Shown here: positions 1,462 to 13,311 of the stretch, one piece after another | Numbering within the stretch: position 1 is the stretch's first letter | Layout of the letters: each line of letters starts with the position of its first letter | Assembly (NCBI GenBank): GCA_028717445.1 | Contig: JAQUNU010000001.1 | Coordinates: 1-33,424 of the forward strand | Reading direction: 5' to 3' | DNA: 33,424 nt | Source of the DNA: Candidatus Portnoybacteria bacterium | GTDB taxonomy: Bacteria; Patescibacteriota; Minisyncoccia; Portnoybacterales; GWB1-42-6 | The notes under the pieces: model-generated | Database searches by the model: none | Told to the model about the DNA's origin: nothing | The model's input: only the letters and a program-made list of their open reading frames with translations | Translations under genes and position numbers: made by a program

Positions 1462-1503
1462 TGTGGATAACTGATGGAAAATCGGTTATTTTTTTGTGGA
1501 TAA
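1462..1503 (-). promoter_or_regulatory. Two perfect DnaA boxes (TTATCCACA, read on the minus strand) overlapping a TATAAT -10 region upstream of the 1555 operon
   Basis: tgtggataa occurs at 1462-1470 and 1495-1503, each preceded by a T-run (tttttgtgtggataa / tttttttgtggataa). TATAAT lies at 1512-1517, 8 nt after the second box, and the first gene starts at 1555. Confidence 0.55.
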
Positions 1504-1554
1504 ATTTAAGGTATAATTAAACTAAGAAAACACTAAATTTTTTGCCTAAATTTA

Positions 1555-2532
1555 ATGAGCCGTAAAAGAGTTAATTTTGCCCGAAATCAAGCCGGGAAAT
1601 TAGGGGTTTTTGTGGCGGTTTTGATATTGTTCGCCGGTCTGTTTTTGGGCGGCTATTTGGTCTTAAAAACAAAAGTCGGCTCCGCTGATGTCGCCTCGCA
1701 GCTGGAATCCGCTCTTGAAAAAACCGGCCTGAAGCAAGATCCCAACGCGGACGATGACGGCGACGGGCTCAAAAATTGGGAAGAAGAAAATTACCGCACA
1801 GATAAAAATAAAGACGACACCGACGGCGACGGCTACCTTGACGGCGAGGAAGTCCTGGCTGGATATGATCCGGCTAAAAAAGCGCCGGGCGATGAACTAG
1901 CCGGCGGCAATGCCAAGACCCCGCGGCCCCTGCCGCAAAACCTGACCAAAGCGCTCACAAATCAGCTGGCGCAGGGAATTTTGGAAGGCAAAATCAAAAC
2001 AATCGATCCGGAAACCGGCCAAACGCTTAAACCGGAAGAGTTTGAAAAAGAAGCCGGGATCGACGAAGCGATTGCCCAAGCGCTCGGCCAGCAATCCGAT
2101 GAATTTGCCATGCCCAAAATAGCCAACTCAGAATTGAGAATTTCAGCTGCCTCAAAAAGGATCGACTTGGCCGCCTATTTTTCAGAAATGTCTAAGATCC
2201 TAAACAAGATAGAAAAAACCGAAAAACCGGAGCTGGAGATCTTTGCCGAGGCCATTGAAAAAACCGATTTTGCCGAATTGGAAAAATATCAGCAAAGCTA
2301 TGTTGAGGCATACCAGGGAATGAAAAATATGACCGTGCCGGCGAACGCGACCGAAATCCACAAAAACATGATGGGATTTCTTTGGATAGTAAATAATATC
2401 TACTCGGCCGTCAAAACCTACGAAGATGACCCATTAAAAACCGCTGTCGCGCTGATCCATTATCAGAATTTAGGCGGCGAAATGAAAAATATTATTGTCA
2501 GAGGCACGGAATTAATAAAAAAGACAAATTGA
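1555..2532 (+). CDS. Membrane-anchored hypothetical protein with thrombospondin-type-3-like Ca-binding repeats
   Basis: 325 aa with an N-terminal TM helix (LGVFVAVLILFAGLFLGGYLVL). It carries tandem DxDxDG motifs (DDDGDGLKNWEE, DTDGDGYLDGEE). It is the first gene of the co-directional cluster, and its stop overlaps the next start (TGATG). Confidence 0.7.
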   Translation: MSRKRVNFARNQAGKLGVFVAVLILFAGLFLGGYLVLKTKVGSADVASQLESALEKTGLKQDPNADDDGDGLKNWEEENYRTDKNKDDTDGDGYLDGEEVLAGYDPAKKAPGDELAGGNAKTPRPLPQNLTKALTNQLAQGILEGKIKTIDPETGQTLKPEEFEKEAGIDEAIAQALGQQSDEFAMPKIANSELRISAASKRIDLAAYFSEMSKILNKIEKTEKPELEIFAEAIEKTDFAELEKYQQSYVEAYQGMKNMTVPANATEIHKNMMGFLWIVNNIYSAVKTYEDDPLKTAVALIHYQNLGGEMKNIIVRGTELIKKTN

Positions 2533-4112
2533 TGAAAAAGTTTGAGCTAAAAATATTTTTTAAAAAAGCTATCAGCGGCTGGCTGATCCTGACCACGCTC
2601 ATTCTTTGTTTTGCCGGAATGGCTTTGCCTGAAAAAAAAGCGGAAGCGGCCCTGGCCACCGAAGCGACGCAAGCCGCCCAAATGCTTCAGGATGGAGTTT
2701 TTTATTTTTCTGACGTTGCCTCAACCGTGGAAGACGAAGTTGTTCAAGGCGGCCAGCTTTCATTTCAGGGAATCATGTCCGCCATTGATGGCTGGTTTAA
2801 ATGGGACACTTTGATGGAAAGAGCCCTAAGATTGGCCTGGTATAAAATGAAGAGGCAAATTCTGCGGGACCTGGCCAATGCCATTCTCAACTGGGCCAAG
2901 GGGGAAGACGGAACTCCTGCTTTTGTCACGGATTGGAAGGGTTATTTATCGAATTTAGGCAAAAATGCCGTCACAAAACTGATCAATGACCAAATCAACA
3001 GCATTGCGATGTGCTTCAACTTTAGTCTCTCCCTAAAAGCCTGGATAAACTGGCAGGATATAAATCTAAATGACCAGCTGGCCTGCCCCATGACGCCGTT
3101 TGTTCTGCAGAACTTTTTATCCGATTTTCAGAGAGGCGGCTGGGACTCCTGGAAGAGCTTCATCAGCCCTTCGGGAAATATGTACGGCTCTTTTATGATC
3201 GTTTCGGACGAAATCCTCAAAGAAGAAGAAAGAGAACGCCAAGCGCAAACGTCCAAACTCATTGCCAATCAGGGATACAAAGGAAATGCGACCACGCCAG
3301 GCATTTTGCAAGCGCACGCGGTTAATGAGGCCGCAATGATGGAATGGACATATCTTATGAATTCCCAAGAGTTTGAAGAATTCGTTTTTGCTTTGGCTGA
3401 TGCCTTTATAATTCGCATTATCAGAGGCGGCGTTAGCGCCCTGCAAACAAACGACTATGACTATTCATCCGGACAGCCCGTAAGCGTCACTCCCCAAACA
3501 AACACCTATATCAACGCTTCCAGCGAAAAAGAAACGATCGATGAAATGAAAAACCGGCTAGCCCTGCTCACGGAAGCTCTGCAAGGGCTCCTGAATGAGC
3601 AAAATCAAAATTTATCCCTCATGCAGTCAATTAAAACAATCCAAAATACTCTGGCTTCGCGCGACTGCGCGCTAGCCTCTCTTCCCATCGATAACGAGCT
3701 CAACGCTTTAACAAACCAAATCAACCAAACACAAACAAGAATCAGCCAGGCCCAGCAAGCGGCTCTCGACAATGACGCTTTAATCAACGCCATCGCTTCG
3801 ATAGAGTCAGCGCAAGATTCGGGGGATCAAGCCGCGCTCGAAAGCGCTTCGACTGTTTATCAAACAACCAGAGAAAAAGCAGTCCAATCTTTCAGCGCTC
3901 TTCTGGGCAGCACTCAACGAGATCTAAATACTACTTTCAGCGAAATGAATTCCTATCTTCTGGCTGTCAACCGCCAGGCCAACACTTATTCCTCCAATCG
4001 TGGCATGGCAAGCATAGGCACAGGCCTGGAGGGCCGCCGCGCCGCGGAAAACCAGCTGCTTCTGGCCTGTCCGGAACCAATCGCCACCACAACGCCGAGT
4101 ATTTTATTTTAG
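2532..4112 (+). CDS. Hypothetical secreted or membrane-anchored protein with a Q/N-rich coiled-coil C-terminal half (T4SS-like cluster)
   Basis: The tracked ORF is 2529..4112 (TTG at 2529, ATG at 2532). There is an N-terminal hydrophobic segment (GWLILTTLILCFAGMALP). The C-terminal region is rich in Q, N, L and A heptad-like sequence. I recognise no family. Confidence 0.65.
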   Translation: MKKFELKIFFKKAISGWLILTTLILCFAGMALPEKKAEAALATEATQAAQMLQDGVFYFSDVASTVEDEVVQGGQLSFQGIMSAIDGWFKWDTLMERALRLAWYKMKRQILRDLANAILNWAKGEDGTPAFVTDWKGYLSNLGKNAVTKLINDQINSIAMCFNFSLSLKAWINWQDINLNDQLACPMTPFVLQNFLSDFQRGGWDSWKSFISPSGNMYGSFMIVSDEILKEEERERQAQTSKLIANQGYKGNATTPGILQAHAVNEAAMMEWTYLMNSQEFEEFVFALADAFIIRIIRGGVSALQTNDYDYSSGQPVSVTPQTNTYINASSEKETIDEMKNRLALLTEALQGLLNEQNQNLSLMQSIKTIQNTLASRDCALASLPIDNELNALTNQINQTQTRISQAQQAALDNDALINAIASIESAQDSGDQAALESASTVYQTTREKAVQSFSALLGSTQRDLNTTFSEMNSYLLAVNRQANTYSSNRGMASIGTGLEGRRAAENQLLLACPEPIATTTPSILF

Positions 4113-4133
4113 CTTCTTGCGCGCAAAAAATTA

Positions 4134-6425
4134 ATGCATAAATTGACACAAAAAAAGATATTGGGAATCGCCTGCATAGCCGCTTTTGCGTTTATGATTT
4201 TTTTGATGCCCGCAGCCGCACAGGCTCAATCTTTTGTTGGAGAATGGATATACGGCAATGTCTTAAAAGCAATCAGCTCTCTGCTTTATTACACTTTTTA
4301 TATTTTTGGCTGGCTGCTCTGGCTGGCCGCTGGTTTGCTTGATTTTGTTCTGACCAATCCGACTTTGCAAAAATTTACCAGCGCTCCCTTTGTCCAAGAC
4401 GGCTGGAAAATCACGCGCGATTTGGCTAATATGTTCTTTTCGTTGATTTTAATCGCCATCGCTTTTGCCACAATCCTGAAAATCGACACCTATGGCGTTA
4501 AAAACAATCTGAAAAACATAATTCTTATCGCTCTTTTAATAAACTTCAGCCTGGTTATCGCCGGGGTAATTATTGATTTTGCCCAAGTTTTGACAAATTA
4601 TTTTGTGACCGCCGCCAAAGGCGACAACGCCAGCATAACCGCGATGCTGGCCAACGGCCTGAATATAACCTCGGGATTTGATCCTTCAAAAGCGCCCCGA
4701 GATCTTGAGTTGAAAGATACGTTCCAAGGATTCCTGACTATAGGCCTTGGCCTTTTTGGCCAGACGATATTTGTCTTGGTGGCGGCTTTCACGATGTTTG
4801 CCGCGGTAATTTTTTTGATTGTCCGGTTTGTAGCCATCTGGTTCTTGCTTATGTTATCGCCCATTGTCTGGCTTTTTTATATTCTCCCCAATACCCGCAA
4901 ATATTGGAACCAGTGGTGGGAGGCATTTATGAAATGGGTTTTTTTCGCGCCGGCTTATACTTTTTTTCTTTATTTAAGCTTAATGGCCGTGAGCAAAGGG
5001 GCGCTTGTTTCGCAGGTTGGATTTGTCATGGATCAATCAGGCCAAACATTCATCGGCAAAAGTTTTGAAGTTATTATCAGCTATATAATTTTGATTGGAT
5101 TTTTGATCGCCTCGCTCATCGTGGCCCAAAAAGCCGGCGTGGCCGGAAGCCACGGCGTTATAGCCGTAGGCCGAGGGATGTCAAGAGCGGTCGGAGGCGC
5201 AGTAAGCAACTGGGCGGCCAGGGGAGCGGAAAAAGATATAACCGGAAAAGGATTTATTAGAGGCGCTGGAGCGGGGCTTCGTCGCGGCATTTCTTATTTA
5301 TCACCCGAAGCCTGGAAAACGGCTTGGCGACAACGGCAAGAACAGACCAAAAGAGAGAGCATCCCAATTGCCGCCGGCCGGCGGCAGGATTTGCTCAACC
5401 GAGTGCTTTCGTTAAGCTGGTTTAAGGGCCAGCCCGGCGAAAAAACCGACTACCGCGAAAGAGCGGCCAGATCCAGGCGCGCCGAAGAACGCAAAAATAT
5501 TTACACCAATAACGCCGAGGAATTAATCAGGGGGTTTTTGGACGCAAAAAAATCCGGCAACGCCAACAAAATGAACGCTTATGTCCAGGCCTTATCCGAG
5601 CAGAATGATCAAAACGAATTGTTCAAGGCTCTGAACAAAACCGAAGGCAAAAATTATGCCATGACTGCCCGCGGCGTTACTGACTTTGTCGAGGAGCAAT
5701 TAAAACCGGCCATGGGCGAACAGCAGGCTTATCGCTTCGGCCATGACATGATCAGGATGATGGAAAGCAATGGCCAGTGGATCGGCCGGCCTTTCGCGGC
5801 CAATGCCTCAGGCAAATACGAGCTTTCAGGCGTAGAGGGAGTTGCCGGCAAAAAAGCCGCCTGGGGCGACCTGAACGAGGAGCAAAAGAAAGCGGTCATG
5901 GAGTTGGCGGCCCAAAACGCCCACGTGGAATGGACCAAACAGGATCCGCAAAAACAGTCTATTAACACAGGGCGGTTTAGCTACATCGACGAAGAATATG
6001 AATTAGGGGCAAATGGGGAAATTGATACAATCGACGGTGGCCTTACCACGGCTGGCCTTCAGAAACTCTCAATGATTCAACCCAGCCAGGCAAATCGATT
6101 AAACACTCACAGCAAAGCCATGTTGATGACCTTCCATGCCGATGAATTCAAGAAGACCAACGCCGGCGTTTTTAACAAAATTATGGAAGACATGACCGCA
6201 GCCGTTAGAGGCATGGACAAACCGGGGATTGAAAACTTCGTCGCCAATTTTACCCAGCCCATTGCGCATATAACCAGCGTCATTCGGGACAAAAACGGCA
6301 AGGAGGTCCGCCGGGTCAGCGCCGATGAAGCAAGGGCTAATTTCGTAAAAATGATCGAAGACGCCCAGGCTGAAAAAGGAGACAACGCCAAGCCAAAAGG
6401 AGGGCCCGCTGGATTTAATCCCTAA
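4134..6425 (+). CDS. Polytopic membrane protein, VirB6/TrbL-like, with a long hydrophilic C-terminal domain
   Basis: 763 aa with a signal-like N-terminus (AAFAFMIFLMPAAAQAQS). At least 6 hydrophobic helices fill the first ~360 aa, followed by a ~400-aa charged soluble tail. The position and topology match VirB6/TrbL components of Gram-positive T4SS loci. Confidence 0.6.
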   Translation: MHKLTQKKILGIACIAAFAFMIFLMPAAAQAQSFVGEWIYGNVLKAISSLLYYTFYIFGWLLWLAAGLLDFVLTNPTLQKFTSAPFVQDGWKITRDLANMFFSLILIAIAFATILKIDTYGVKNNLKNIILIALLINFSLVIAGVIIDFAQVLTNYFVTAAKGDNASITAMLANGLNITSGFDPSKAPRDLELKDTFQGFLTIGLGLFGQTIFVLVAAFTMFAAVIFLIVRFVAIWFLLMLSPIVWLFYILPNTRKYWNQWWEAFMKWVFFAPAYTFFLYLSLMAVSKGALVSQVGFVMDQSGQTFIGKSFEVIISYIILIGFLIASLIVAQKAGVAGSHGVIAVGRGMSRAVGGAVSNWAARGAEKDITGKGFIRGAGAGLRRGISYLSPEAWKTAWRQRQEQTKRESIPIAAGRRQDLLNRVLSLSWFKGQPGEKTDYRERAARSRRAEERKNIYTNNAEELIRGFLDAKKSGNANKMNAYVQALSEQNDQNELFKALNKTEGKNYAMTARGVTDFVEEQLKPAMGEQQAYRFGHDMIRMMESNGQWIGRPFAANASGKYELSGVEGVAGKKAAWGDLNEEQKKAVMELAAQNAHVEWTKQDPQKQSINTGRFSYIDEEYELGANGEIDTIDGGLTTAGLQKLSMIQPSQANRLNTHSKAMLMTFHADEFKKTNAGVFNKIMEDMTAAVRGMDKPGIENFVANFTQPIAHITSVIRDKNGKEVRRVSADEARANFVKMIEDAQAEKGDNAKPKGGPAGFNP

Positions 6426-6445
6426 ACTTAAGAATAAACACCTAG

Positions 6446-7630
6446 ATGCCCTTAACCCGCGAACAACTTGATTTTTTCCAATACCAGGCCAATGCCAATA
6501 TTGATTCTCTTCTCCGGAAGGAATCGCTGTTTTTGGCCATGGAAATGGAACCGTTAATCTTAACCCAATCAGGGGGCAGCTACGACAATCTGTCTGAAGC
6601 AAAAAAATTGCTTTTCCAATTAAAATGGGTCGGCTGCGGCATAATCAGAGATGATAATGATTTTTATGACCTTGTTAAATATCATCTACTAGAAGGATTC
6701 GAGTTAAACAGACGCTTTGAATTTGACGCTTTCAGCGATCTTGTTTTTAGCAAATTAGCTAATCTTTTCGGATCAGGATTGCAGGAAATGACGCAAAATA
6801 TACTTTCCGCAACAAGAGAAAATAATCAAACCATCGGCGCGAATCCGATCATGGTCAAAAATGAAACCCGGGCCGTCCGGCCGACTGTCCGCCATTGGCT
6901 GATAGATTTTTTAAGAAGCTCTTCTGCGGAAAATCCAGGCGAAGTCCAGGAAACCGACTATCTTTTCAACAATCCGAATGCCAAAGCTCTTTCGGAAGAA
7001 GATAAAAAAACACTCGGCCAGGTTTTAGCTTTTTACGATACAATGCGTTTACTCTCAAAGGAGGTGGCTATGTCCGAAACTATGCCTCCAAGCGCCGCCG
7101 AAGAACGCCCGCTGATCGCTCCCTTGCGCCAGCAAACCGGAGATGAATTTCATTTTGAAGAACGGCCTCGGCCGTCCATGTCCGCTTTCTACGAAACCCA
7201 ACAACCATCGCCGCGCCCGATTCCGCCGCAACAATCTTTTTCCAACCCAGCCAGGACTTTTTCTCCGCCCCCGCCGCCAGCTCCTCGGCCGCAACCGGCC
7301 TGGCCGCCATCACCCGAAAAAAATTCCTACCAACCCAGGCCCGCCAGCCCGCCTCCTTCTTTGCCGATCCAGCCGCCATCAACGCCATCAAAGCCAATTC
7401 TTTCCAGAATCACTCCGCCTCAAACCCAACCAGTGACCGGACCTGCTTCTTTCAGGCCAGCTCCAATTCCGCCCCCAATTCCGGTCCGGCCAAATACCCC
7501 ACAACAAAAAAGCACCTACCGCGAGACGATCACCCCAGAAGATTTAGACGGTCCGCAGACGCCCCGAAAAACAGGGCCAAAACTAAATGGAAATGTAGTC
7601 AACCTTAAAGATTTTAACCGATCCAATTAA
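6446..7630 (+). CDS. Hypothetical protein with an extreme proline-rich C-terminal half
   Basis: 394 aa. Residues ~210-370 are P/S/Q-rich low complexity (PPPPPAPRPQPAWPPSPEKNSYQPRPASPPPSLPIQPPSTPSKP). No TM segment was seen. Confidence 0.6.
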   Translation: MPLTREQLDFFQYQANANIDSLLRKESLFLAMEMEPLILTQSGGSYDNLSEAKKLLFQLKWVGCGIIRDDNDFYDLVKYHLLEGFELNRRFEFDAFSDLVFSKLANLFGSGLQEMTQNILSATRENNQTIGANPIMVKNETRAVRPTVRHWLIDFLRSSSAENPGEVQETDYLFNNPNAKALSEEDKKTLGQVLAFYDTMRLLSKEVAMSETMPPSAAEERPLIAPLRQQTGDEFHFEERPRPSMSAFYETQQPSPRPIPPQQSFSNPARTFSPPPPPAPRPQPAWPPSPEKNSYQPRPASPPPSLPIQPPSTPSKPILSRITPPQTQPVTGPASFRPAPIPPPIPVRPNTPQQKSTYRETITPEDLDGPQTPRKTGPKLNGNVVNLKDFNRSN

Positions 7631-7646
7631 CCCTTATTGAAGAATT

Positions 7647-7931
7647 ATGCAATTTCACGTTCCTCAATTCCTCGATATTGAAGACAAAATTATCGGCCCT
7701 TTAACCCTTAAACAATTCGCCTACCTAGCCGGCGGGGGAGTCTTGCTTTTTATTCTGTCTAATTATGTAAAATTATGGCTTTTTTTGATAATCGCCGCGC
7801 CTTTGGCCGCGTTTTGCATGGCTCTGGCCTTTATCCGGGTCAACGGCCGACCATTTATTTCAATCTTTGGCGCTTTTGTAAATTACATGGTCAAGCCGAA
7901 GCTTTTTGTCTGGAAAAGAAAAGAAAAATGA
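7647..7931 (+). CDS. PrgI-family small membrane protein (VirB3-like T4SS component)
   Basis: 94 aa. The N-terminus VPQFLDIEDKIIGPLTLKQFAYLAGGG followed by two TM helices is the signature of the PrgI family (Pfam PF12666, recalled from memory). It lies directly upstream of the VirB4-like genes, as in Gram-positive T4SS loci. Confidence 0.7.
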   Translation: MQFHVPQFLDIEDKIIGPLTLKQFAYLAGGGVLLFILSNYVKLWLFLIIAAPLAAFCMALAFIRVNGRPFISIFGAFVNYMVKPKLFVWKRKEK

Positions 7932-7944
7932 GCTGTAAAAACAT

Positions 7945-8625
7945 ATGCCCGAACCACAATCAAACATTTTAAACAAAATACCAATCGCCGACATTCAGAA
8001 TGGAATCGTCTTCTTAAAAGACGGTTCGCTTCGGGGAGTTTTAATGGTTTCTTCCGTAAACTTTGCCCTGAAATCAACCGACGAACAGGACGCGCTGACC
8101 TTTCGCTATCAGCAATTTTTGAATTCCCTCGATTTTCCCATCCAAATCCTGATCATGACGCGGCGGTTTGATATCTCCGACTACATCGCCTTGATTGACC
8201 AAAAGAAAAAAGAACAGGAGAACGAACTGCTGCGGATCCAAACCGGTGAATATATTGATTTCATCAAAGGATTGACTCAAGTCGTCAATATTATGAGCAC
8301 TTTTTTTTATATCATCATCCCTTACGCCCAAAGCGAACCGGCCAAAGCGGCCATGGGCTTTGCGGACAAAATAACCAGAAAGATTTTCAGCCAGGAAACG
8401 AGTCAAAATCAAGAAAAACAATCCCTAGAACAAATGCAGACCGGGCTCTGGCAGCGCGTAAATTATATAATCTCCGGCTTGACCATGTGCAATTTGAAAA
8501 GCGCCATTTTAGACGACTTGGAATTAAAAGAGCTTTTTTACAAGCTTTACAATCCGCAATCAGAGCAAAGAGCCGAAACAGAATCTCCGTCAAGCAATCC
8601 AGGATTTAATTTCACCCAAAAATAA
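7945..8625 (+). CDS. Hypothetical protein; resembles a VirB4/TrsE N-terminal domain without an ATPase domain
   Basis: 226 aa. IADIQNGIVFLKDGSLRGVLMVSSVNFALKSTDEQDALTFRYQQFLNSLDFPIQILI resembles the start of VirB4-type proteins. There is no Walker motif. The stop lies 3 nt before the VirB4-like ATPase start. Confidence 0.5.
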   Translation: MPEPQSNILNKIPIADIQNGIVFLKDGSLRGVLMVSSVNFALKSTDEQDALTFRYQQFLNSLDFPIQILIMTRRFDISDYIALIDQKKKEQENELLRIQTGEYIDFIKGLTQVVNIMSTFFYIIIPYAQSEPAKAAMGFADKITRKIFSQETSQNQEKQSLEQMQTGLWQRVNYIISGLTMCNLKSAILDDLELKELFYKLYNPQSEQRAETESPSSNPGFNFTQK

Positions 8626-8628
8626 ATT

Positions 8629-10440
8629 ATGGATTTACCATTTTTTTCAAAACAAAAAAACAAAACAAAACAAACGCCCGAATCGAAGATTGCGGAAATA
8701 TTGGCGCCCTCAGCCATGAAAATAAACGCCAATTTCATCCAGCTCGGCGGCAAATTATGCCGGGTTCTTTTTGTTTTTACCTATCCAAGGAATCTCTCGA
8801 CTAATTGGTTCTCGCCGGTTCTCACCATGGATAAGGAGTTAAATATTTCGATGTTCATCAAGCCGGCCGAAACGCATCTCATCCTAAAACAATTAAGAAA
8901 AAAAGTCGCCCAGGTGCAATCACAGATTTCAGCCCAGCAGGAAAAAGGGAAAATCAGAGATCCCATCCTGCAAACCGCGCTTCAGGATATGGAAACGATG
9001 CGCGACACGCTCCAGCAGGGGACAGAAAGATTTTTTAATTTTGGTCTCTATATCGCCGCTTTCGGCAATTCGCCCCAGGAGCTTGACCAGATTGAGAATG
9101 AACTCCGGGCCGCGATGGAATCAAAATTAGTCTATGTCAAGCCCGCCACTTTCCAACAAGAAGCCGGCTTCACTTCAATTCTGCCGCTGGCCAAAGACGC
9201 TCTTTCGATTTCGACGCCGATGAACACGGCCCCGGTTTCCAGCACATTCCCTTTTGTCTCCTCGGATCTTTCTCAAAACAAAGGCATTCTTTATGGCATT
9301 AACCGACACAACAACAGCTTGATACTTTTTGACCGTTTTTCTTTGGAAAATGCCAATATGGTTATTTTCGCCAAGTCCGGCGCCGGAAAAAGCTATGCGG
9401 TCAAGCTTGAAATATTAAGATCGCTCATGATGGGATCGGACGTTATTGTGATCGATCCGGAAAACGAATATCAGTATCTTGCCGAAACAGTGGGCGGCTC
9501 ATATATAAAAATTTCGCTGACTTCGCCGCATCATATTAATCCTTTTGACCTGCCGATTCCCAGAAAAGATGAACGGCCAGGCGATATTTTACGCTCAAAC
9601 ATCATCAACCTGGTTGGCCTTATCCGAATAATGCTGGGCGGCTTGACCCCGCAGGAAGACGCTGTTTTGGATAAAGCCCTGACAGAAACTTATGCTTCGC
9701 GGGATATTACTCCTGAATCTGATTTTGCGAACATTACGCCGCCGCTCTTAAGCGATCTTAAAACCATCCTTGGCAACATGGAGGGCGGCCAATCCATGGC
9801 GCAGCGGCTCGAAAAATATACCAGCGGCTCATACGCCGGCTTCTTTAATCGGCCCACGAACGTGGCGGTCAAAAACCGATTGGTTGCTTTTTCCATCCGC
9901 GATATGGAAGAAGATCTCCGGCCGATGGCCATGTATGTTGTGCTCCATTATATCTGGAACCTGATCCGTTCGGAGATGAAAAAAAGAATTCTCGTCGTGG
10001 ACGAGGCCTGGGTCATGATGCGTTACGAAGATGCCGGTTCTTTTATGTTCGGCATTGCCAAAAGATGCCGTAAATATTTTCTTGGCCTAACCACGATCAC
10101 CCAAGATGTCGCCGACTTCATGGCCTCAACCTACGGCAAGCCAATCGTCACCAACTCCTCCATCCAGCTCCTGATGAAACAATCGCCAGCCACTATCGAA
10201 ATTATCCAAAACACCTTCAATCTGACCGACCAAGAAAAGTATCTTCTGCTGGAATGCAATGTCGGAGAAGGAATATTTTTTGCCGGCTTAAAGCACGTGG
10301 CCATCAAAGTTATCGCCTCCTACACCGAAGATCAGATTATCACCTCCGACCCGGCCCAGCTGCTTGAAATAGAAAAGGCTAAAGAAGAATTAACAGCGGA
10401 AGAAAACCAACCAACCGATAACAACTTGGACATTATTTAA
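8629..10440 (+). CDS. virB4: VirB4/TrsE/TraC-like type IV secretion ATPase
   Basis: 603 aa with Walker A FAKSGAGKSYAVK and Walker B RILVVDEAW. There is a downstream TTITQ sensor-like motif, and the N-terminal domain carries the YPRNLSTNWF motif typical of VirB4 homologs. Confidence 0.85.
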   Translation: MDLPFFSKQKNKTKQTPESKIAEILAPSAMKINANFIQLGGKLCRVLFVFTYPRNLSTNWFSPVLTMDKELNISMFIKPAETHLILKQLRKKVAQVQSQISAQQEKGKIRDPILQTALQDMETMRDTLQQGTERFFNFGLYIAAFGNSPQELDQIENELRAAMESKLVYVKPATFQQEAGFTSILPLAKDALSISTPMNTAPVSSTFPFVSSDLSQNKGILYGINRHNNSLILFDRFSLENANMVIFAKSGAGKSYAVKLEILRSLMMGSDVIVIDPENEYQYLAETVGGSYIKISLTSPHHINPFDLPIPRKDERPGDILRSNIINLVGLIRIMLGGLTPQEDAVLDKALTETYASRDITPESDFANITPPLLSDLKTILGNMEGGQSMAQRLEKYTSGSYAGFFNRPTNVAVKNRLVAFSIRDMEEDLRPMAMYVVLHYIWNLIRSEMKKRILVVDEAWVMMRYEDAGSFMFGIAKRCRKYFLGLTTITQDVADFMASTYGKPIVTNSSIQLLMKQSPATIEIIQNTFNLTDQEKYLLLECNVGEGIFFAGLKHVAIKVIASYTEDQIITSDPAQLLEIEKAKEELTAEENQPTDNNLDII

Positions 10441-10441
10441 A

Positions 10442-10843
10442 ATGGCCAATGAAATAAATAAAATAAGAAGGGATGATAGCAAGGAAAAAAAAGAAACAAA
10501 CATCAATAGCCCGAAATCCGACGTCACGAGTATCGAATTTGCCCTAATCGCCTTAGTCGCCGTAGGCAAAGACGGCTTGGATGCCGGAGCGACACTCTCG
10601 ATCATCGGAGTGCCTTTAACGCCCATATTAAATATCGGCGCGATAATGATTTTGTGGCTTTGGTGCGTAATGCGGCTAAAAGAATTCCCAACCAAAAGAT
10701 TCGCGGGTTCCGCCATGTTGGAATTCTTGCCTTTTTTGAACGCACTGCCGTTCTGGACGGCTTTCCTGATTCTTATTTATATCCAACAAAACTTTCCCAA
10801 TCTTTCAAAGTATATTCCGGGTTCGAAAGATGAAAAAAAATAA
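10442..10843 (+). CDS. Small integral membrane protein (hypothetical, T4SS-like cluster)
   Basis: 133 aa with a charged N-terminus followed by about 3 hydrophobic helices. It starts 1 nt after the VirB4-like stop. Confidence 0.55.
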   Translation: MANEINKIRRDDSKEKKETNINSPKSDVTSIEFALIALVAVGKDGLDAGATLSIIGVPLTPILNIGAIMILWLWCVMRLKEFPTKRFAGSAMLEFLPFLNALPFWTAFLILIYIQQNFPNLSKYIPGSKDEKK

Positions 10844-10852
10844 ATTGAAAAT

Positions 10853-11704
10853 TTGAAAATCACTAAATTTTTTTTCGCAAATATTTTGCCCGCTTTTTAT
10901 TTTCTCTCCTGCTCGACCGCATTTGCCCTGGAATATCCCTTCGGCAATCTGTCGGCCAATCCCACTCCCTGCGAATATATTAAAACGGCATACATTTGGG
11001 GTCTGGGGATTGTCGGCACTCTGGCGGTGGCCGTGATCGCTTTTGGCGGTTTTCTTTACATGGTGGGGAAAGTGGAGCAGGGCAAAGACTACATCACTTC
11101 GGCGTTTTTGGGAATACTGCTGCTTTTTGGCGCTTACCTGATTCTCTACACTATTAATCCGGAATTGGCACAGTTGAAGTGCGAGATAAAGAATATGCAA
11201 CCCTTGGGAACTCCGCCCACCGGCGCTTCGGTGCCAATAACACCTGGCTCAACCACCGGCACTTCGCTTGGAGAACAGGCGGCTCGGGGCGCTTTGGCCA
11301 GCGGCGTAGGCGTAAAAGACGCTTGTCCGCCTGGGCAGGCGACCGGATGCGTTAGAATGGAGGGGATGAAGGATACAACCGTTAACGAAATAAATGATTT
11401 AGCCGGCAAAGTTGGGCCTGAAAATATCTACATTTCAGGCGGCACCGAAGGGTGCGGCGCCACTGGCTCAACAATTCATTCAACCGGCTCAGTCAGCCAT
11501 TGTTCCGGCGATAAGTATGACATGAGACAGAATAACACCGTTAATAATTATATCGAAAACGCTTTTGTAAAAATGCCCAATCGAAAATACGATGGCGCCG
11601 AAATGTGGATGGACCCAAAAACCGGAACCACTTATGCCAAAGAAATGGGCGTTGTAGGAACGGTTAACGGACCACACTGGGACGTGGCTGTCCGGAAAAT
11701 TTAA
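10853..11704 (+). CDS. VirB2/TrbC-like 'T4SS pilin' N-terminal module fused to a putative LAS/M15-type zinc peptidase (cell-wall hydrolase) domain
   Basis: 283 aa with a TTG start. It has a signal-like N-terminus and then two TM helices (IWGLGIVGTLAVAVIAFGGFLYM and FLGILLLFGAYLILYTINP), as in the Patescibacteria T4SS pilin family. A Pro/Thr linker follows. The C-terminal domain carries SHCSGDKYD (H-x3-G-x3-D) and GPHWDVAVR (H-x-D) motifs. Confidence 0.6.
   Translation: MKITKFFFANILPAFYFLSCSTAFALEYPFGNLSANPTPCEYIKTAYIWGLGIVGTLAVAVIAFGGFLYMVGKVEQGKDYITSAFLGILLLFGAYLILYTINPELAQLKCEIKNMQPLGTPPTGASVPITPGSTTGTSLGEQAARGALASGVGVKDACPPGQATGCVRMEGMKDTTVNEINDLAGKVGPENIYISGGTEGCGATGSTIHSTGSVSHCSGDKYDMRQNNTVNNYIENAFVKMPNRKYDGAEMWMDPKTGTTYAKEMGVVGTVNGPHWDVAVRKI
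10923..11200 (+). repeat. Direct repeat copy A (278 bp, identical to 11797-12074)
   Basis: A base-by-base read of both copies shows identity. Both the sense and the antisense ORF translations are also identical across the repeat. Confidence 0.95.
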
Positions 11705-11735
11705 ATTATCAAATTCGGAAAAATCTAATAATATT

Positions 11736-12194
11736 GTGAAAAAATATTTTAAAATAATTTTTTCTTTGATCGGCCTAACCTTTCCGATTTTCTCCCTTGC
11801 CCTGGAATATCCCTTCGGCAATCTGTCGGCCAATCCCACTCCCTGCGAATATATTAAAACGGCATACATTTGGGGTCTGGGGATTGTCGGCACTCTGGCG
11901 GTGGCCGTGATCGCTTTTGGCGGTTTTCTTTACATGGTGGGGAAAGTGGAGCAGGGCAAAGACTACATCACTTCGGCGTTTTTGGGAATACTGCTGCTTT
12001 TTGGCGCTTACCTGATTCTCTACACTATTAATCCGGAATTGGCACAGTTGAAGTGCGAGATAAAGAATATGCAAAAATTTAATGAAGCGCCGCAACCGAC
12101 AAAAACGACGGACGAACCGCTCCCGCAATCGATGACCGAAAAAATAGATGCCGGCGCAACCAACCAAGACATAAAAGACGACATGTTAAAATAA
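11736..12194 (+). CDS. VirB2/TrbC-like 'T4SS pilin' paralog with a short hydrophilic tail
   Basis: 152 aa with a GTG start. Residues ALEYPFGNL...AQLKCEIKNMQ are 100% identical to the preceding gene. The signal peptide and C-terminal tail are unrelated to it. Confidence 0.7.
   Translation: MKKYFKIIFSLIGLTFPIFSLALEYPFGNLSANPTPCEYIKTAYIWGLGIVGTLAVAVIAFGGFLYMVGKVEQGKDYITSAFLGILLLFGAYLILYTINPELAQLKCEIKNMQKFNEAPQPTKTTDEPLPQSMTEKIDAGATNQDIKDDMLK
11797..12074 (+). repeat. Direct repeat copy B (278 bp, identical to 10923-11200)
   Basis: Same as copy A; the offset between copies is 874 bp. Confidence 0.95.
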
Positions 12195-12213
12195 ACCGCC
12201 TATTATTTTTTAA

Positions 12214-13311
12214 ATGAAGAAAAAAATCTTTGTCGCTTTAATAATATTTTTCGTCTTAAGCAGCGGCTCGCTGCTGATTTATAATTTCTTTTTCAAAGAG
12301 AAAACGGAGACAAAAATCGAGGAAAATAAAGAAAAAGCCGAGATAAAAGCGATCAGCGAAAAACAAGCGTTTGCCCCTTTTTTGGAGAACGGCCAAGTCA
12401 AATATTATCTGGCCCAAAACGGCCACGTCGTTCAGTCAAAATTTGACGGCACCCAAAAAAAGGAAATTTCCACGACAGATCTGAAAGATTTGAAAAAAGT
12501 GGCCTGGTCTCCTGATGGCAAAAAAGTCATCGGTTTTTACGGCGAAACAACCGGCAACGGGGTAAAAAAATCCGTTTTTGATTACATAACAAAAAAATCA
12601 TACCCGCTCGACGCCAACATCCGCTCGATCGCCTGGTCGCCGGACAGCAAAAAAATTATTTATCAATACTCCGATAATCAGGGGAATAACAACATCAGCG
12701 CGGCCAACCAGGATGGCTCTGGTTGGCATAATATTCTGCAGACTCGGCTGGGAAATTTGGTCGTCGAATGTCCGACGCCCGGCAAAATTTCCCTTCGGAG
12801 CGTGCCAAACAGCCAAACCAAGGGCTTTCTTTTTGTCCTTGAAGAAAAAACAGAAAATATAGTCGCGGTTCTGGATGATTTAAACGGCTTCTCGGCCAAA
12901 TGGTCGCCGGACGGACAAAAAATCCTTTATCAGACAACAAACGCCAAAGGCCAAGATTTGAAGCTCTTCGTCGCCGACAGCCAAGGCCAAAACAGCCTCC
13001 AGCTGCCCGCGATCACGCTGGTTGAAAAATGCGCTTGGTCCGCGAATAGCCAGAAAATCTTTTGCGCCGCGCCCCAAAATATCTCCGATAACGCAACTTG
13101 GCCTGAGGATTGGCTAGATGGACTCGTTTCCGTTAAAGACGATCTCTATGAGCTCTCTGCCGACGGCAAAGAAAAAACAAAAATCGTCGCTTCTGACGAA
13201 GCGCGATCTTTTGATGTAAATGAAATTATTGCTTCTCCCCAAGGCGACTACGTTCTATTTACCAGCCGCCGCGATGGCCTGCTTTGGAGCGTCGCCATTC
13301 CCAATAATTAA
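12214..13311 (+). CDS. Membrane-anchored PD40/TolB-like beta-propeller repeat protein
   Basis: 365 aa with an N-terminal TM helix. PD40 signatures recur: AWSPDGKKVIGFY, AWSPDSKKIIYQY, KWSPDGQKILYQT, AWSANSQKIFC, ASPQGDYVLFTS. Confidence 0.75.
   Translation: MKKKIFVALIIFFVLSSGSLLIYNFFFKEKTETKIEENKEKAEIKAISEKQAFAPFLENGQVKYYLAQNGHVVQSKFDGTQKKEISTTDLKDLKKVAWSPDGKKVIGFYGETTGNGVKKSVFDYITKKSYPLDANIRSIAWSPDSKKIIYQYSDNQGNNNISAANQDGSGWHNILQTRLGNLVVECPTPGKISLRSVPNSQTKGFLFVLEEKTENIVAVLDDLNGFSAKWSPDGQKILYQTTNAKGQDLKLFVADSQGQNSLQLPAITLVEKCAWSANSQKIFCAAPQNISDNATWPEDWLDGLVSVKDDLYELSADGKEKTKIVASDEARSFDVNEIIASPQGDYVLFTSRRDGLLWSVAIPNN

What the first reader, a model, noticed from the sequence alone, without database searches (positions are those of the whole stretch)
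1555..13311. Origin-proximal chromosomal T4SS-like cluster with no DNA-transfer genes and many unrecognisable components
Twelve co-directional genes run with overlapping or near-abutting stops and starts. They include a VirB6/TrbL-like polytopic protein (4134-6425) and a PrgI/VirB3-like protein (7647-7931). There is also a VirB4-like ATPase with intact Walker A/B motifs (8629-10440) and two VirB2-like pilin paralogs (10853-12194).

The window contains no relaxase, VirD4-type coupling ATPase, integrase or tRNA border. The cluster sits only ~6 kb from rpmH-dnaA, so it looks like a fixed core-genome machine rather than a conjugative element.

More than half of its coding capacity has no family I can name: 1555-4112, 6446-7630, 7945-8625, 10442-10843 and 12214-13311. 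VirB4/VirB6/PrgI-type loci are known to recur in Patescibacteria, but their substrate and architecture are essentially uncharacterised. A role at the contact interface with a host cell (protein or DNA exchange, or attachment) is plausible but is inference.
Basis: partly seen in the sequence, partly recalled or inferred. Interest (0 to 1): 0.75.

Follow-up and report, generated by a model that had tools for sequence, protein, structure and literature searches.

The report
Patescibacteria-type chromosomal type IV secretion system
This is a real type IV secretion gene cluster fixed next to the replication origin of a tiny Portnoybacteria-like bacterium. This kind of relaxase-free system was already described in 2023-2025, so the finding is sound but not new.

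Summary
Eleven (not twelve) co-directional genes at 1555-13311 are separated by -4 to 31 nt.

Component assignments:
- PrgI/VirB3 and the VirB4 ATPase pass curated cut-offs.
- VirB6 is supported through its homologues and through a structure model whose seven best PDB matches are all R388 VirB6.
- The two pilins fall below the Pfam cut-off themselves but belong to a family that clearly matches T4SS_pilin.
7945-8625 is the TrsD-like detached N-domain of VirB4. 12214-13311 is a TolB-like beta-propeller.

The window has no relaxase, coupling protein, integrase or tRNA. Gene order from ksgA through the cluster to rnpA-dnaA-dnaN is kept in dozens of related genomes, so this is not a mobile element.

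All of this matches published work: Wang 2023 (Cell), Quinonero-Coronel 2025 (Microb Genom) and a 2025 FEMS review. I file it as a new member of a known kind.

Three small additions:
- The only two exact DnaA boxes in the window sit in the operon's promoter region. Exact boxes are about 70-fold enriched there across relatives.
- The long pilin carries a conserved enzyme-like C-terminal domain. Relatives carry cell-wall hydrolase domains in that position.
- The two pilin genes share a 278-nt perfect repeat.

Substrate and function remain inferred.

The parts
1462..1503 (-). Two exact DnaA boxes (TTATCCACA at 1462-1470 and 1495-1503, 33 bp apart) in the ksgA-g1 spacer, 93 and 60 nt upstream of the first gene
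   Evidence: These are the only exact matches in the window and can be read directly in the sequence. The same pair with the same spacing occurs in L002 and L003. Exact boxes are about 70-fold enriched upstream of g1 across 34 loci.
1512..1517 (+). Perfect TATAAT hexamer 38 nt upstream of the g1 start; candidate -10 element of the operon promoter
   Evidence: Read from the sequence. The consensus scan did not list it as a full promoter, so this is inference.
1555..2532 (+). g1: N-terminal membrane anchor, bacterial TSP3 calcium-binding repeat, then a helical domain; presumably outside the cell
   Evidence: PF18884 at 34.3 bits, cut-off 25. One hydrophobic segment at residues 11-41. Homologues in 34 of 81 loci at the same position. 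The profile matches only the TSP3 part of a biofilm surface protein in the PDB.
2529..4112 (+). g2: signal or anchor segment, a conserved Cys-containing globular domain, then a coiled coil of variable length; family unknown
   Evidence: No Pfam or NCBIfam hit. Homologues in 31 of 81 loci at the same position, 256-1510 aa long. The profile hits only coiled coils in the PDB. NCBI starts the protein one codon later, giving 526 aa.
4134..6425 (+). Extended VirB6/TrbL-like polytopic membrane protein with a large C-terminal soluble domain (about 440-750) of unknown fold
   Evidence: Nine hydrophobic windows within residues 6-338, several overlapping. 9 of 30 homologues hit TrbL. AF2 mean pLDDT is 84.7. 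The top 7 Foldseek PDB hits are R388 TrwI/VirB6, with probability 1.00, E 1.8e-3 to 6e-2 and TM (target) 0.44-0.53. The C-domain has no match.
6446..7630 (+). g4: soluble protein with an N-terminal helical domain, a proline-rich linker and a conserved C-terminal motif (YREP...KP.PKL.GNVVDL); family unknown
   Evidence: No hydrophobic segment and no family hit. Homologues in 59 of 81 loci between VirB6 and PrgI. The motif is visible in alignment A6.
7647..7931 (+). PrgI/VirB3-like small membrane protein
   Evidence: PF12666 at 43.1 bits, cut-off 27. Present in 71 of 81 loci.
7945..8625 (+). TrsD-like protein, the detached N-terminal domain of VirB4
   Evidence: NCBIfam VirB4_plasma E 1.9e-8, TrsD E 3.5e-5, CD1110 positions 11-140 and TIGR00929, all below their cut-offs. 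It clusters with VirB4 in the all-against-all comparison. In L045 one 832-aa ORF aligns g6 to residues 9-195 and g7 to residues 255-827.
8629..10440 (+). VirB4-type ATPase (C-terminal part of VirB4), CD1110/MPF-FATA-like
   Evidence: conju_CD1110 at 375 bits, cut-off 325, covering model positions 183-733 of 752. Best solved relative is Thermoanaerobacter VirB4 4ag5, E 1.4e-43; R388 TrwK scores E 1.5e-7. Plasmid VirB4 proteins are at most 35% identical.
10442..10843 (+). g8: small membrane protein with hydrophobic stretches at about 50-80 and 94-114 and an invariant Asp; family unknown
   Evidence: Hydrophobic windows. 25 loci have a homologue right after VirB4, and other loci have unrelated small membrane proteins there. 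D44 is invariant in alignment A7. No family hit.
10853..11704 (+). Long VirB2-like pilin: signal peptide, two-helix hairpin, disordered linker, then a C-terminal alpha/beta domain (about 135-283) with invariant His/His/Asp/His
   Evidence: PF18895 at 14.4 bits, below the cut-off. NCBI names it 'pilin'. Full-length homologues P0142, P0148, P0150 and L011 pass the PF18895 cut-off. AF2 mean pLDDT is 82 and the C-domain is mostly above 90. Invariant residues are H209, H216, G219, D223 and H275. No Foldseek or Pfam match for the C-domain.
11736..12194 (+). Short VirB2-like pilin paralog with the same hairpin core and a short, different tail
   Evidence: PF18895 at 15.6 bits. The core is identical to the long pilin.
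10923..12074 (.). 278-nt perfect direct repeat (10923-11200 and 11797-12074) covering the pilin cores
   Evidence: the repeat finder reports 100% identity and 874-nt spacing.
12214..13311 (+). Membrane-anchored PD40/TolB-like beta-propeller, the last gene of the cluster
   Evidence: PF07676 at 41.1 bits, cut-off 20.9. TolB TIGR02800 E 2.5e-10, partial. One N-terminal hydrophobic segment. Present in 55 of 81 loci after the pilin.

Best explanation
This is the chromosomal, vertically inherited type IV secretion system typical of Patescibacteria. It derives from the conjugation machinery of single-membrane bacteria (the MPF-FATA class). Here it sits in a Candidatus Portnoybacteria (Paceibacteria-type) metagenome-assembled genome.

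Shown:
- The cluster encodes an extended VirB6, PrgI/VirB3, a VirB4 split into a TrsD-like N-domain and an ATPase, and two VirB2-like pilins.
- These are flanked by conserved lineage-specific envelope proteins: g1 (TSP3 repeat), g2 (coiled coil), g4, g8 and a TolB-like propeller.
- The whole unit sits in a fixed slot between ksgA and the rnpA-rpmH-dnaA-dnaN origin region.
- The window holds no relaxase, coupling protein or integrase.

Inferred mechanism:
- VirB6, PrgI and the split VirB4 form the membrane translocon and its motor.
- VirB4 extracts the pilins from the membrane and polymerises them into a short filament or conduit.
- The enzyme-like C-domain of the long pilin opens peptidoglycan. 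In relatives this position holds genuine SLT, amidase, M23 or M15 domains.
- g1, g2 and the propeller build the wall-spanning or host-contact part.
- The machine serves contact-dependent exchange with a host cell rather than conjugation. The homologous system is essential for epibiotic growth in Southlakia.
- Exact DnaA boxes in the operon's promoter region suggest that expression is tied to DnaA.
For: Family assignments.

Split VirB4.

Fixed synteny: ksgA-g1-g2-VirB6-g4-PrgI-TrsD-VirB4-g8-pilin-propeller-(wzy, flippase)-jag-yidC-rnpA-dnaA-dnaN is kept in related genomes whose VirB4 is 57-86% identical.

No mobile-element genes or tRNA in the window, and GC content does not step at the cluster edges.

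Origin next door: dnaA and dnaN are present, three one-mismatch DnaA boxes lie in their spacer, and cumulative GC skew reaches its minimum at about 21-22 kb.

Monoderm ancestry: the best curated model is the Clostridioides CD1110 family, the best solved relative is a Firmicute VirB4, and the C. botulinum plasmid order VirB6-PrgI-x-VirB4-small ORF-SLT hydrolase is collinear with this cluster.

Literature: the same architecture, the lack of relaxase, the pilin arrays and the proximity to dnaA, dnaN, rnpA, ksgA and rpmH are described in PMC12102498. Essentiality in Southlakia is reported in PMC10633639 and reviewed in PMC12857230.

Hydrolase fusions on the pilin core in relatives: SLT E 3e-30, Amidase_2 E 2e-15 and M23 E 6e-11.

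DnaA boxes.
Against: - No functional data exist for this organism or for any Paceibacteria T4SS. Substrate, direction of transport and existence of a pilus are all inferred.
- The window's own VirB6 and pilin sequences fall below the curated cut-offs.
- No VirB8-like or VirB1-like protein was recognised in the window.
- The long pilin's C-domain has no Pfam hit and no structural match in the PDB or BFVD despite a confident model. Its hydrolase role rests on motifs, on position and on analogy with relatives.
- The window is a whole 33-kb contig, so a VirD4 or relaxase elsewhere in the genome is untested.
- DnaA binding to the boxes is untested.
- Exact boxes occur upstream of g1 in only 10 of 34 loci.
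Confidence: 0.8

Rival explanations
1. The VirB2-like proteins are not pilus subunits. The hairpin is simply the membrane anchor of the system's cell-wall hydrolase, equivalent to VirB1, PrgK or CD419. The machine would then be a pilus-less channel as in Gram-positive conjugation.
For: The long pilin occupies the slot that holds a TM-anchored SLT hydrolase after VirB4 and a small ORF in the C. botulinum plasmid. Many family members carry SLT, lysozyme-like, amidase, M23 or M15 domains on the same core. [quoted passage not shown]
Against: Short paralogs made of the hairpin with almost no extra domain exist here and in L005, L056, L062 and L063. The core matches T4SS_pilin and, more weakly, TrbC/VirB2. 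Agrobacterium VirB2 aligns over the whole hairpin but is not significant, E 5-8. Pilin arrays are essential in Southlakia.
Confidence: 0.25
2. It is a DNA-uptake machine, like the ComB system of Helicobacter or the archaeal Ced system. It would import host DNA as a nucleotide source for an organism that cannot make nucleotides.
For: Like DNA-uptake T4SSs such as ComB, the window lacks a relaxase and coupling protein (my knowledge for ComB). The VirB4 gives a weak partial hit to CedB, E 6e-12. In class ABY1 the T4SS sits with comF, recG and radA. DNA repair and recombination genes (uvrD, ruvC, ruvB) are in the window.
Against: The CedB score is 45 bits against a cut-off of 700, and the best model is a conjugation-type VirB4. 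No Ced- or ComB-specific partner and no comEC lie nearby. In Southlakia, comEC is dispensable while the T4SS is essential.
Confidence: 0.12
3. It is an ordinary integrative conjugative element, or its remnant, whose relaxase, coupling protein and integrase lie outside the contig.
For: The window is a complete 33-kb contig, so the rest of the genome is unseen. VirD4 homologues occur elsewhere in most Patescibacteria genomes.
Against: The same insertion slot and the same housekeeping neighbours on both sides are kept across many genera. These include loci on contigs of 95-377 kb where 10 kb of flank on each side shows only uvrD and ksgA on one side and yidC, rnpA, dnaA and dnaN on the other. There is no tRNA, no integrase and no composition step. 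Relaxases were found in only 103 of 3,035 Patescibacteria genomes.
Confidence: 0.04

Closest known systems
Patescibacteria T4SS as surveyed by Quinonero-Coronel et al. 2025 (Microb Genom; PMC12102498), Paceibacteria arrangement
   Same: Same components: a VirB4 of the kind nested in MPF-FATA, TrsD, PrgI/VirB3, VirB6 and VirB2-like pilins next to virB4. No relaxase. Same neighbours: dnaA, dnaN, rnpA, ksgA and rpmH.
   Different: Nothing essential differs. Details not reported there: pilin paralogs identical over 278 nt, whereas the paper gives 54% as the maximum identity within arrays; pilin cores fused to cell-wall hydrolase domains; DnaA boxes in the operon promoter region.
Southlakia epibionticum T4SS SEML1_0006-0019 (Wang et al. 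2023, Cell; PMC10633639)
   Same: A chromosomal T4SS that resembles the Gram-positive type but has pilins. It has no recognisable relaxase or coupling protein in the cluster, and peptidase and lysozyme genes lie after virB4.
   Different: That system belongs to Saccharimonadia, has an array of six divergent pilins and is experimentally essential. The one here belongs to a Paceibacteria-type lineage, has a long and a short pilin with identical cores, and has no experimental data.
CD1110/CTn2-type conjugative T4SS of Firmicutes, e.g. C. botulinum plasmid pCDC3875
   Same: The order VirB6-PrgI-x-VirB4-small ORF-cell-wall hydrolase is collinear. VirB4 is 31% identical and is the best curated family match.
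   Different: The plasmid has a VirD4-like coupling protein in the same gene block, is typed as carrying a MOBP relaxase, has an unsplit 797-aa VirB4 and a short 260-aa VirB6, and has no protein matching the pilin profile among the ORFs tested. The window has none of the transfer genes. It adds g1, g2, g4 and the propeller, for which my profiles found no counterpart there.
Pontibacillus sp. ALD_SL1 898-kb replicon, locus 350-361 kb (NZ_CP062975.1)
   Same: It has two pilin-family proteins matching my Patescibacteria pilin profile (E 2e-11 and 2e-14). It has PrgI, a separate TrsD-like ORF (E 3e-28), VirB4 (34% identical, the highest bit score among the listed plasmid hits), then a large metalloendopeptidase. 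No transfer genes are annotated nearby.
   Different: It is in a Firmicute, lies beside chemotaxis and flagellar genes and is not near an origin. My profiles for VirB6, g1, g2, g4 and g8 found no match among its ORFs.
R388 / Agrobacterium VirB-type T4SS (solved structures 7o3v, 8rt9, 8exh)
   Same: The VirB6 fold matches TrwI. The VirB4 ATPase domain matches TrwK at E 1.5e-7. The pilin hairpin is collinear with VirB2, but not significantly so.
   Different: No VirB7, VirB9 or VirB10 outer-membrane complex and no VirB5, VirB8, VirB11 or VirD4 were recognised. VirB6 carries an extra C-terminal soluble domain (about residues 440-750) of unknown fold.

Membership tests
Type IV secretion system, Patescibacteria clade of MPF-FATA | VirB4 ATPase with intact nucleotide-binding motifs | tested here: met
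   conju_CD1110 at 375 bits, cut-off 325. P-loop_TraG, DUF87 and AAA_10 above their cut-offs. Walker A AKSGAGKS (read from the translation) and Walker B ILVVDE.
Type IV secretion system, Patescibacteria clade of MPF-FATA | VirB3/PrgI-type small membrane partner of VirB4 | tested here: met
   PF12666 at 43.1 bits, cut-off 27.
Type IV secretion system, Patescibacteria clade of MPF-FATA | VirB6/TrbL polytopic membrane protein | tested here: met
   The protein's own sequence has no family hit. 9 of 30 homologues hit TrbL, three above the cut-off. The AF2 model's top 7 PDB matches are TrwI/VirB6, with probability 1.00 and best E 1.8e-3.
Type IV secretion system, Patescibacteria clade of MPF-FATA | TrsD-like protein next to virB4 | tested here: met
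   NCBIfam TrsD E 3.5e-5 and VirB4 N-terminal regions E 2e-8 to 8e-5, all below the curated cut-offs. The gene is fused with VirB4 in L045.
Type IV secretion system, Patescibacteria clade of MPF-FATA | VirB2-like pilin gene(s) next to virB4 | tested here: met
   The window proteins score 14.4 and 15.6 bits against a cut-off of 26.6, so they fail directly. At family level, 65 of 76 syntenic members and 107 of 137 proteins sharing the C-domain hit PF18895. Full-length homologues pass the cut-off. The model shows a two-helix hairpin.
Type IV secretion system, Patescibacteria clade of MPF-FATA | VirB4 branches inside the monophyletic Patescibacteria clade | not tested
   No tree was built. As a proxy, VirB4 is 57-86% identical to the 80 loci kept by the genome scan, nearly all labelled Patescibacteria/CPR, against at most 35% to plasmid VirB4.
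Type IV secretion system, Patescibacteria clade of MPF-FATA | Chromosomal location near dnaA, dnaN, rnpA, ksgA and rpmH, without a relaxase nearby | tested here: met
   for the window; for relatives.
Integrative conjugative element / conjugative plasmid | Relaxase and coupling protein (VirD4 or TcpA) with the mating-pair genes | tested here: not met
   None among the larger ORFs of the window. The rest of the genome was not available.
Integrative conjugative element / conjugative plasmid | Integrase, tRNA or repeat borders, and variable presence among relatives | tested here: not met
   No tRNA and no integrase. The slot and its housekeeping flanks are fixed across relatives.
LAS / peptidase M15 zinc hydrolases (for the long pilin's C-domain only) | H-x6-D and E-x2-H metal and catalytic motifs (motif definition from my knowledge of VanX/VanY) | tested here: met
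   H216-x6-D223 and H275 are invariant. In the family consensus H-x2-G-x-K-x-D and E-x2-H-W-D are near-invariant. In the window protein itself an insertion separates the Glu from the His.
LAS / peptidase M15 zinc hydrolases (for the long pilin's C-domain only) | Significant profile or fold match to a known member | tested here: not met
   No Pfam hit for the domain. None of 137 family members hits M15. No Foldseek match in the PDB or BFVD. The only link is indirect: hhalign gives probability 61% to the L006/L007/L008 domain, which itself hits M15_3/M15_4 only weakly, E 0.003-0.03. I do not file the domain as M15.
DNA-uptake T4SS (ComB / Ced) | System-specific components (CedA/CedB, the ComB set) or linkage to comEC | tested here: not met
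   CedB scores 45 bits against a cut-off of 700. No such neighbours.
DnaA-regulated promoter | Consensus DnaA boxes in the promoter region, conserved in relatives | tested here: met
   Two exact boxes lie 93 and 60 nt upstream of g1 and are the only ones in the window. Across 34 loci, 10 have an exact box upstream of g1. Density is 1.41 per kb there against 0.020 per kb elsewhere.
DnaA-regulated promoter | DnaA binding and an effect on transcription | not testable with these tools
   Needs a footprint or EMSA and expression data.

The most novel reading that the evidence does not exclude
The T4SS operon is a direct DnaA target, so building the host-contact machine is coupled to the replication cycle. 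In addition, its VirB2-like pilins are modular carriers. A conserved hairpin, kept identical between paralogs by gene conversion, would display swappable wall-cutting enzymes. The filament would then be a 'cutting pilus' that breaches the host's or the cell's own peptidoglycan.
Probability: 0.2. Interest if true: 0.7.

Novelty: new member of a known kind. Interest (0 to 1): 0.35.

Why it matters
Patescibacteria account for a large share of bacterial diversity and appear to depend on host cells. Their relaxase-free T4SS is essential in the one species tested, yet its substrate and architecture are unknown. This locus adds no new kind of system.

It does give a compact, well-conserved Paceibacteria version with three testable leads:
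- DnaA boxes in the operon promoter region offer a concrete alternative to the published gene-dosage idea for why the system sits at the origin.
- Pilin cores fused to cell-wall hydrolases may explain why separate VirB1 genes seem to be missing.
- A set of conserved partners (g1, g2, g4, g8 and the propeller) are candidates for the wall-spanning and host-contact parts.

Tried and rejected
1. M15/LAS peptidase assignment for the long pilin's C-domain. Motifs fit, but Pfam, PDB sequence searches and Foldseek against the PDB and BFVD gave nothing. I keep it only as a hypothesis.

2. Structure prediction of g2 with an alignment built from related loci. The word-indexed search for g2 returned only 4 proteins, so no model was made.

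3. Profile searches of g1, g2 and VirB6 against PDB sequences. They returned only coiled-coil, TSP3 or chance hits.

4. TrsD against PDB sequences: no hit.

5. Exact look-up of the short pilin in public assemblies, to test the duplication independently: the protein is not on record.

6. ICE reading: rejected on synteny and gene content.

7. The promoter and terminator consensus scan of the cluster was uninformative, with counts near the shuffle expectation.

8. My profiles for g1, g2, g4, g8 and VirB6 found no counterparts in the two Firmicute loci examined.

Full report
**Source of the window.** The 763-aa and 527-aa products of the window are identical to NCBI proteins of a "Candidatus Portnoybacteria bacterium" MAG with locus tags PHQ47_00025 and PHQ47_00020. 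The longest contig recorded for them is 33,424 bp, so the window is a whole contig. The 80 loci kept from the species-representative genome scan have VirB4 57-86% identical and come almost entirely from Parcubacteria/Paceibacteria-type candidate phyla: Portnoy-, Azam-, Moranii-, Yanofsky-, Zambryski- and Spechtbacteria.

**Checking the observation.** On the + strand there are eleven ORFs between 1555 and 13311, separated by -4 to 31 nt. The flanks are housekeeping genes:
- Upstream: a UvrD C-terminal fragment and KsgA.
- Downstream, on the opposite strand: two Wzy_C proteins, a polysaccharide flippase, Jag, YidC, YidD, RnpA and RpmH.
- Beyond those: DnaA, DnaN, DciA, a class A PBP, RuvC, YebC, a lamin-tail-domain protein, RuvB and a PilB-type ATPase.

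No tRNA was found. No relaxase, coupling protein or integrase was found among the larger ORFs. GC content does not step at the cluster borders. Cumulative GC skew reaches its minimum at about 21-22 kb, beside dnaA-dnaN, and their spacer holds three one-mismatch DnaA boxes. The cluster ends 5.7-6.1 kb from rpmH and dnaA.

**Component assignments.**
- PrgI passes Pfam's cut-off, 43.1 against 27 bits.
- The 603-aa ATPase passes NCBIfam's cut-off for the Clostridioides-type VirB4 family CD1110, 375 against 325 bits. It covers model positions 183-733 of 752. Its best solved relative is the Thermoanaerobacter VirB4 domain 4ag5, E 1.4e-43.
- The missing N-terminal part of VirB4 is the preceding ORF, 7945-8625. 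It aligns to the N-terminal regions of four VirB4 and TrsD models at E 2e-8 to 8e-5, below their cut-offs. In locus L045 it is fused with the ATPase in one 832-aa ORF.
- VirB6 gets no family hit on its own sequence. Its homologues (E 1e-55 to 1e-92) hit TrbL, 9 of 30 in total and three above the cut-off. A model from a 78-sequence alignment has mean pLDDT 84.7. Its seven best PDB matches are all TrwI/VirB6 of plasmid R388, with probability 1.00, E 1.8e-3 to 6e-2 and 221-279 aligned columns. The C-terminal soluble domain (about residues 440-750) is modelled with confidence but matched nothing.
- The last ORF is a membrane-anchored PD40/TolB-like propeller.
- g1 carries a bacterial TSP3 calcium-binding repeat.
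- Still unnamed: g2 (anchor, Cys-containing globular domain, coiled coil), g4 (soluble, proline-rich, conserved C-terminal motif) and g8 (small membrane protein).

**The pilins.** The two window proteins score only 14-16 bits on PF18895 against a cut-off of 26.6. The family evidence is much stronger:
- 65 of 76 proteins at the same genomic position in related loci hit PF18895 at E <= 0.01, and nine of these also hit TrbC/VirB2.
- Full-length homologues pass the cut-off.
- NCBI names the long one "pilin".
- The model shows a signal helix and a two-helix hairpin.

The two genes share a 278-nt stretch that is 100% identical. Pairs of a long and a short pilin whose cores are 50-91% identical recur in at least eight relatives. 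The published survey reports at most 54% identity within pilin arrays. The perfect identity here could reflect recent gene conversion or an assembly artefact, and I could not tell which.

**The long pilin's C-terminal domain.**
- The domain spans about 150 residues and is confidently modelled, with pLDDT mostly above 90.
- H209, H216, G219, D223 and H275 are invariant.
- 236 cluster representatives among 1.84 billion proteins carry this domain, nearly always at the C-terminus of proteins about 260-400 aa long. Of 137 scanned, 107 carry PF18895.
- The near-invariant pattern is GGTE...H...H-x2-G-x-K-x-D...E-x2-H-W-D. It has the spacing I recall for VanX/VanY-type zinc peptidases.
- Neither Pfam nor Foldseek links it to any known family.

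In other loci the same pilin core is followed by genuine cell-wall hydrolase domains:
- SLT, E 3e-30
- Amidase_2, E 2e-15
- Peptidase_M23, E 6e-11
- lysozyme-like domains
- weak M15 hits

In a Clostridium botulinum plasmid with the collinear order VirB6-PrgI-x-VirB4-small ORF, the next gene is a large SLT hydrolase. The long pilin therefore probably supplies the VirB1-like wall-opening function. That is inference.

**Not a mobile element.** The order ksgA-g1-g2-VirB6-g4-PrgI-TrsD-VirB4-g8 (or another small membrane protein)-pilin-propeller is followed in related loci by (wzy, flippase)-jag-yidC-rnpA-dnaA-dnaN, or directly by yidC-rnpA-dnaA-dnaN. This is kept locus after locus, including on contigs of 95-377 kb. 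The number of the 81 loci (window plus 80 relatives) holding a homologue of each protein is given below. Many contigs are cut short, so these are lower bounds.

| Protein | Loci with a homologue (of 81) |
|---|---|
| g1 | 34 |
| g2 | 31 |
| VirB6 | 61 |
| g4 | 59 |
| PrgI | 71 |
| TrsD/VirB4 | 81 |
| g8 | 25 |
| pilin | 61 |
| propeller | 55 |

An extra secreted protein (c6, about 250-390 aa) sits between g8 and the pilin in 40 loci. It is absent here and in the two Portnoybacteria loci L002 and L003.

**Comparison with what is known.** Wang et al. 2023 described an unusual T4SS in Southlakia that resembles the Gram-positive type. It has essential pilins and no recognisable relaxase or coupling protein, and it is essential for epibiotic growth. 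Quinonero-Coronel et al. 2025 surveyed 3,035 genomes. They found a monophyletic Patescibacteria VirB4 clade nested in MPF-FATA. They found TrsD, PrgI, VirB6 and VirB2-like pilins near virB4, and relaxases in only 103 genomes. In Paceibacteria and other classes they found proximity to dnaA, dnaN, rnpA, ksgA and rpmH, which they interpret as a gene-dosage effect. A 2025 review repeats this. This locus is a new member of a known kind.

**What is added here.**
1. The only two exact DnaA boxes in the window lie 33 bp apart in the 115-bp spacer before g1, just upstream of a perfect TATAAT. The same pair with the same spacing occurs in L002 and L003. Across 34 loci, exact boxes are about 70-fold denser in the 250 nt upstream of g1 than elsewhere: 12 in 8.5 kb against 14 in about 700 kb. 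The 2025 paper does not mention boxes or promoters.
2. The pilin-hydrolase fusions and the unclassified His/Asp domain, as described above. The paper mentions no fusion other than VirB3-VirB4.
3. A Pontibacillus replicon has a related cluster with two pilin-family proteins, PrgI, a separate TrsD and VirB4, and no transfer genes annotated nearby.

**Mechanism.** Gene content, conservation and location are shown. The rest is inferred. The proposed assembly is a VirB6-PrgI-VirB4 translocon, pilin polymerisation driven by VirB4, wall opening by the pilin-borne enzyme, and envelope or host-contact roles for g1, g2 and the propeller. The proposed function is contact-dependent exchange with a host, and the proposed regulation is by DnaA. 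The main rivals are that the "pilins" are only hydrolase anchors, that the machine takes up DNA, or that it is part of an ICE. The last is very unlikely on synteny.

Noticed in passing
window 1462-1470 and 1495-1503 (- strand); L002 2161 and 2194; L003 2333 and 2366: The only two exact DnaA boxes in the window sit 33 bp apart in the spacer before the first T4SS gene, next to a perfect TATAAT at 1512-1517. The same pair occurs in two relatives. Exact boxes are about 70-fold enriched upstream of g1 across 34 loci.
   Followed up: yes
window 10923-11200 and 11797-12074: A 278-nt direct repeat, 100% identical, covers the cores of the two pilin genes. It may reflect gene conversion or a metagenome assembly artefact. 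Long and short pilin pairs with cores 50-91% identical recur in relatives such as L005, L006, L007, L023, L032, L056, L062 and L063.
   Followed up: partly
Related loci, e.g. L005:4558-5490 and L032:7540-8379; proteins P0143 and P0145: VirB2-like pilin cores are fused at the C-terminus to cell-wall hydrolase domains: SLT, lysozyme-like, Amidase_2, Peptidase_M23 and weak M15 hits. The window-type C-domain (invariant His/His/Asp/His) matched no Pfam family and has 236 cluster representatives, most of them fused to a pilin core.
   Followed up: yes
window 1555-13311 relative to the origin at about 21 kb: The T4SS operon is transcribed towards the putative origin, head-on to replication. The neighbouring rpmH-rnpA-yidC-jag-flippase-wzy genes are co-directional with replication. 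The orientation is the same in the relatives.
   Followed up: no
L082 (Pontibacillus sp. ALD_SL1, NZ_CP062975.1) 5507-15060: A Firmicute 898-kb replicon has a related cluster: two pilin-family proteins (one annotated as the Mbov_0395 pilin-like family), PrgI, a separate TrsD-like ORF, VirB4 (34% identical) and a large metalloendopeptidase. It lies beside chemotaxis and flagellar genes with no transfer genes annotated nearby. Pilin-bearing, relaxase-free relatives may therefore exist outside Patescibacteria.
   Followed up: partly
L002:9571-9951 and 15 other loci (cluster c14): Small ORFs of the '23S rRNA intervening sequence protein' family (PF05635, E 1e-14) are inserted at varying positions inside the T4SS clusters of relatives. 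In L002 one sits between TrsD and VirB4. None is in the window. The varying positions suggest a mobile small gene.
   Followed up: no
Related loci between g8 and the pilin (cluster c6, e.g. L047:12255-13244): A secreted protein of about 250-390 aa is present in 40 loci at this position but absent from the window and from the Portnoybacteria loci L002 and L003. The representative scanned gave only a weak BiPBP_C hit.
   Followed up: partly
window 6446-7630 (g4), C-terminus: The conserved C-terminal motif YREP..(E/Q)DL.GP...KP.PKL.GNVVDL follows a long proline-rich linker and is kept across distant relatives. It looks like a short docking peptide; its partner is unknown.
   Followed up: no
window 13255-17307 (- strand): Two Wzy_C (O-antigen ligase-like) membrane proteins and a polysaccharide flippase lie between the T4SS and jag-yidC. 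They are conserved at this place in about 21-24 relatives. The first overlaps the end of the propeller gene by 57 nt in convergent orientation.
   Followed up: no
window 31148-32887 (- strand) and 28474-29823 (- strand): A PilB-type T2SSE ATPase with an MshEN domain (type IV pilus motor) and a lamin-tail-domain protein lie on the other side of the origin region.
   Followed up: no
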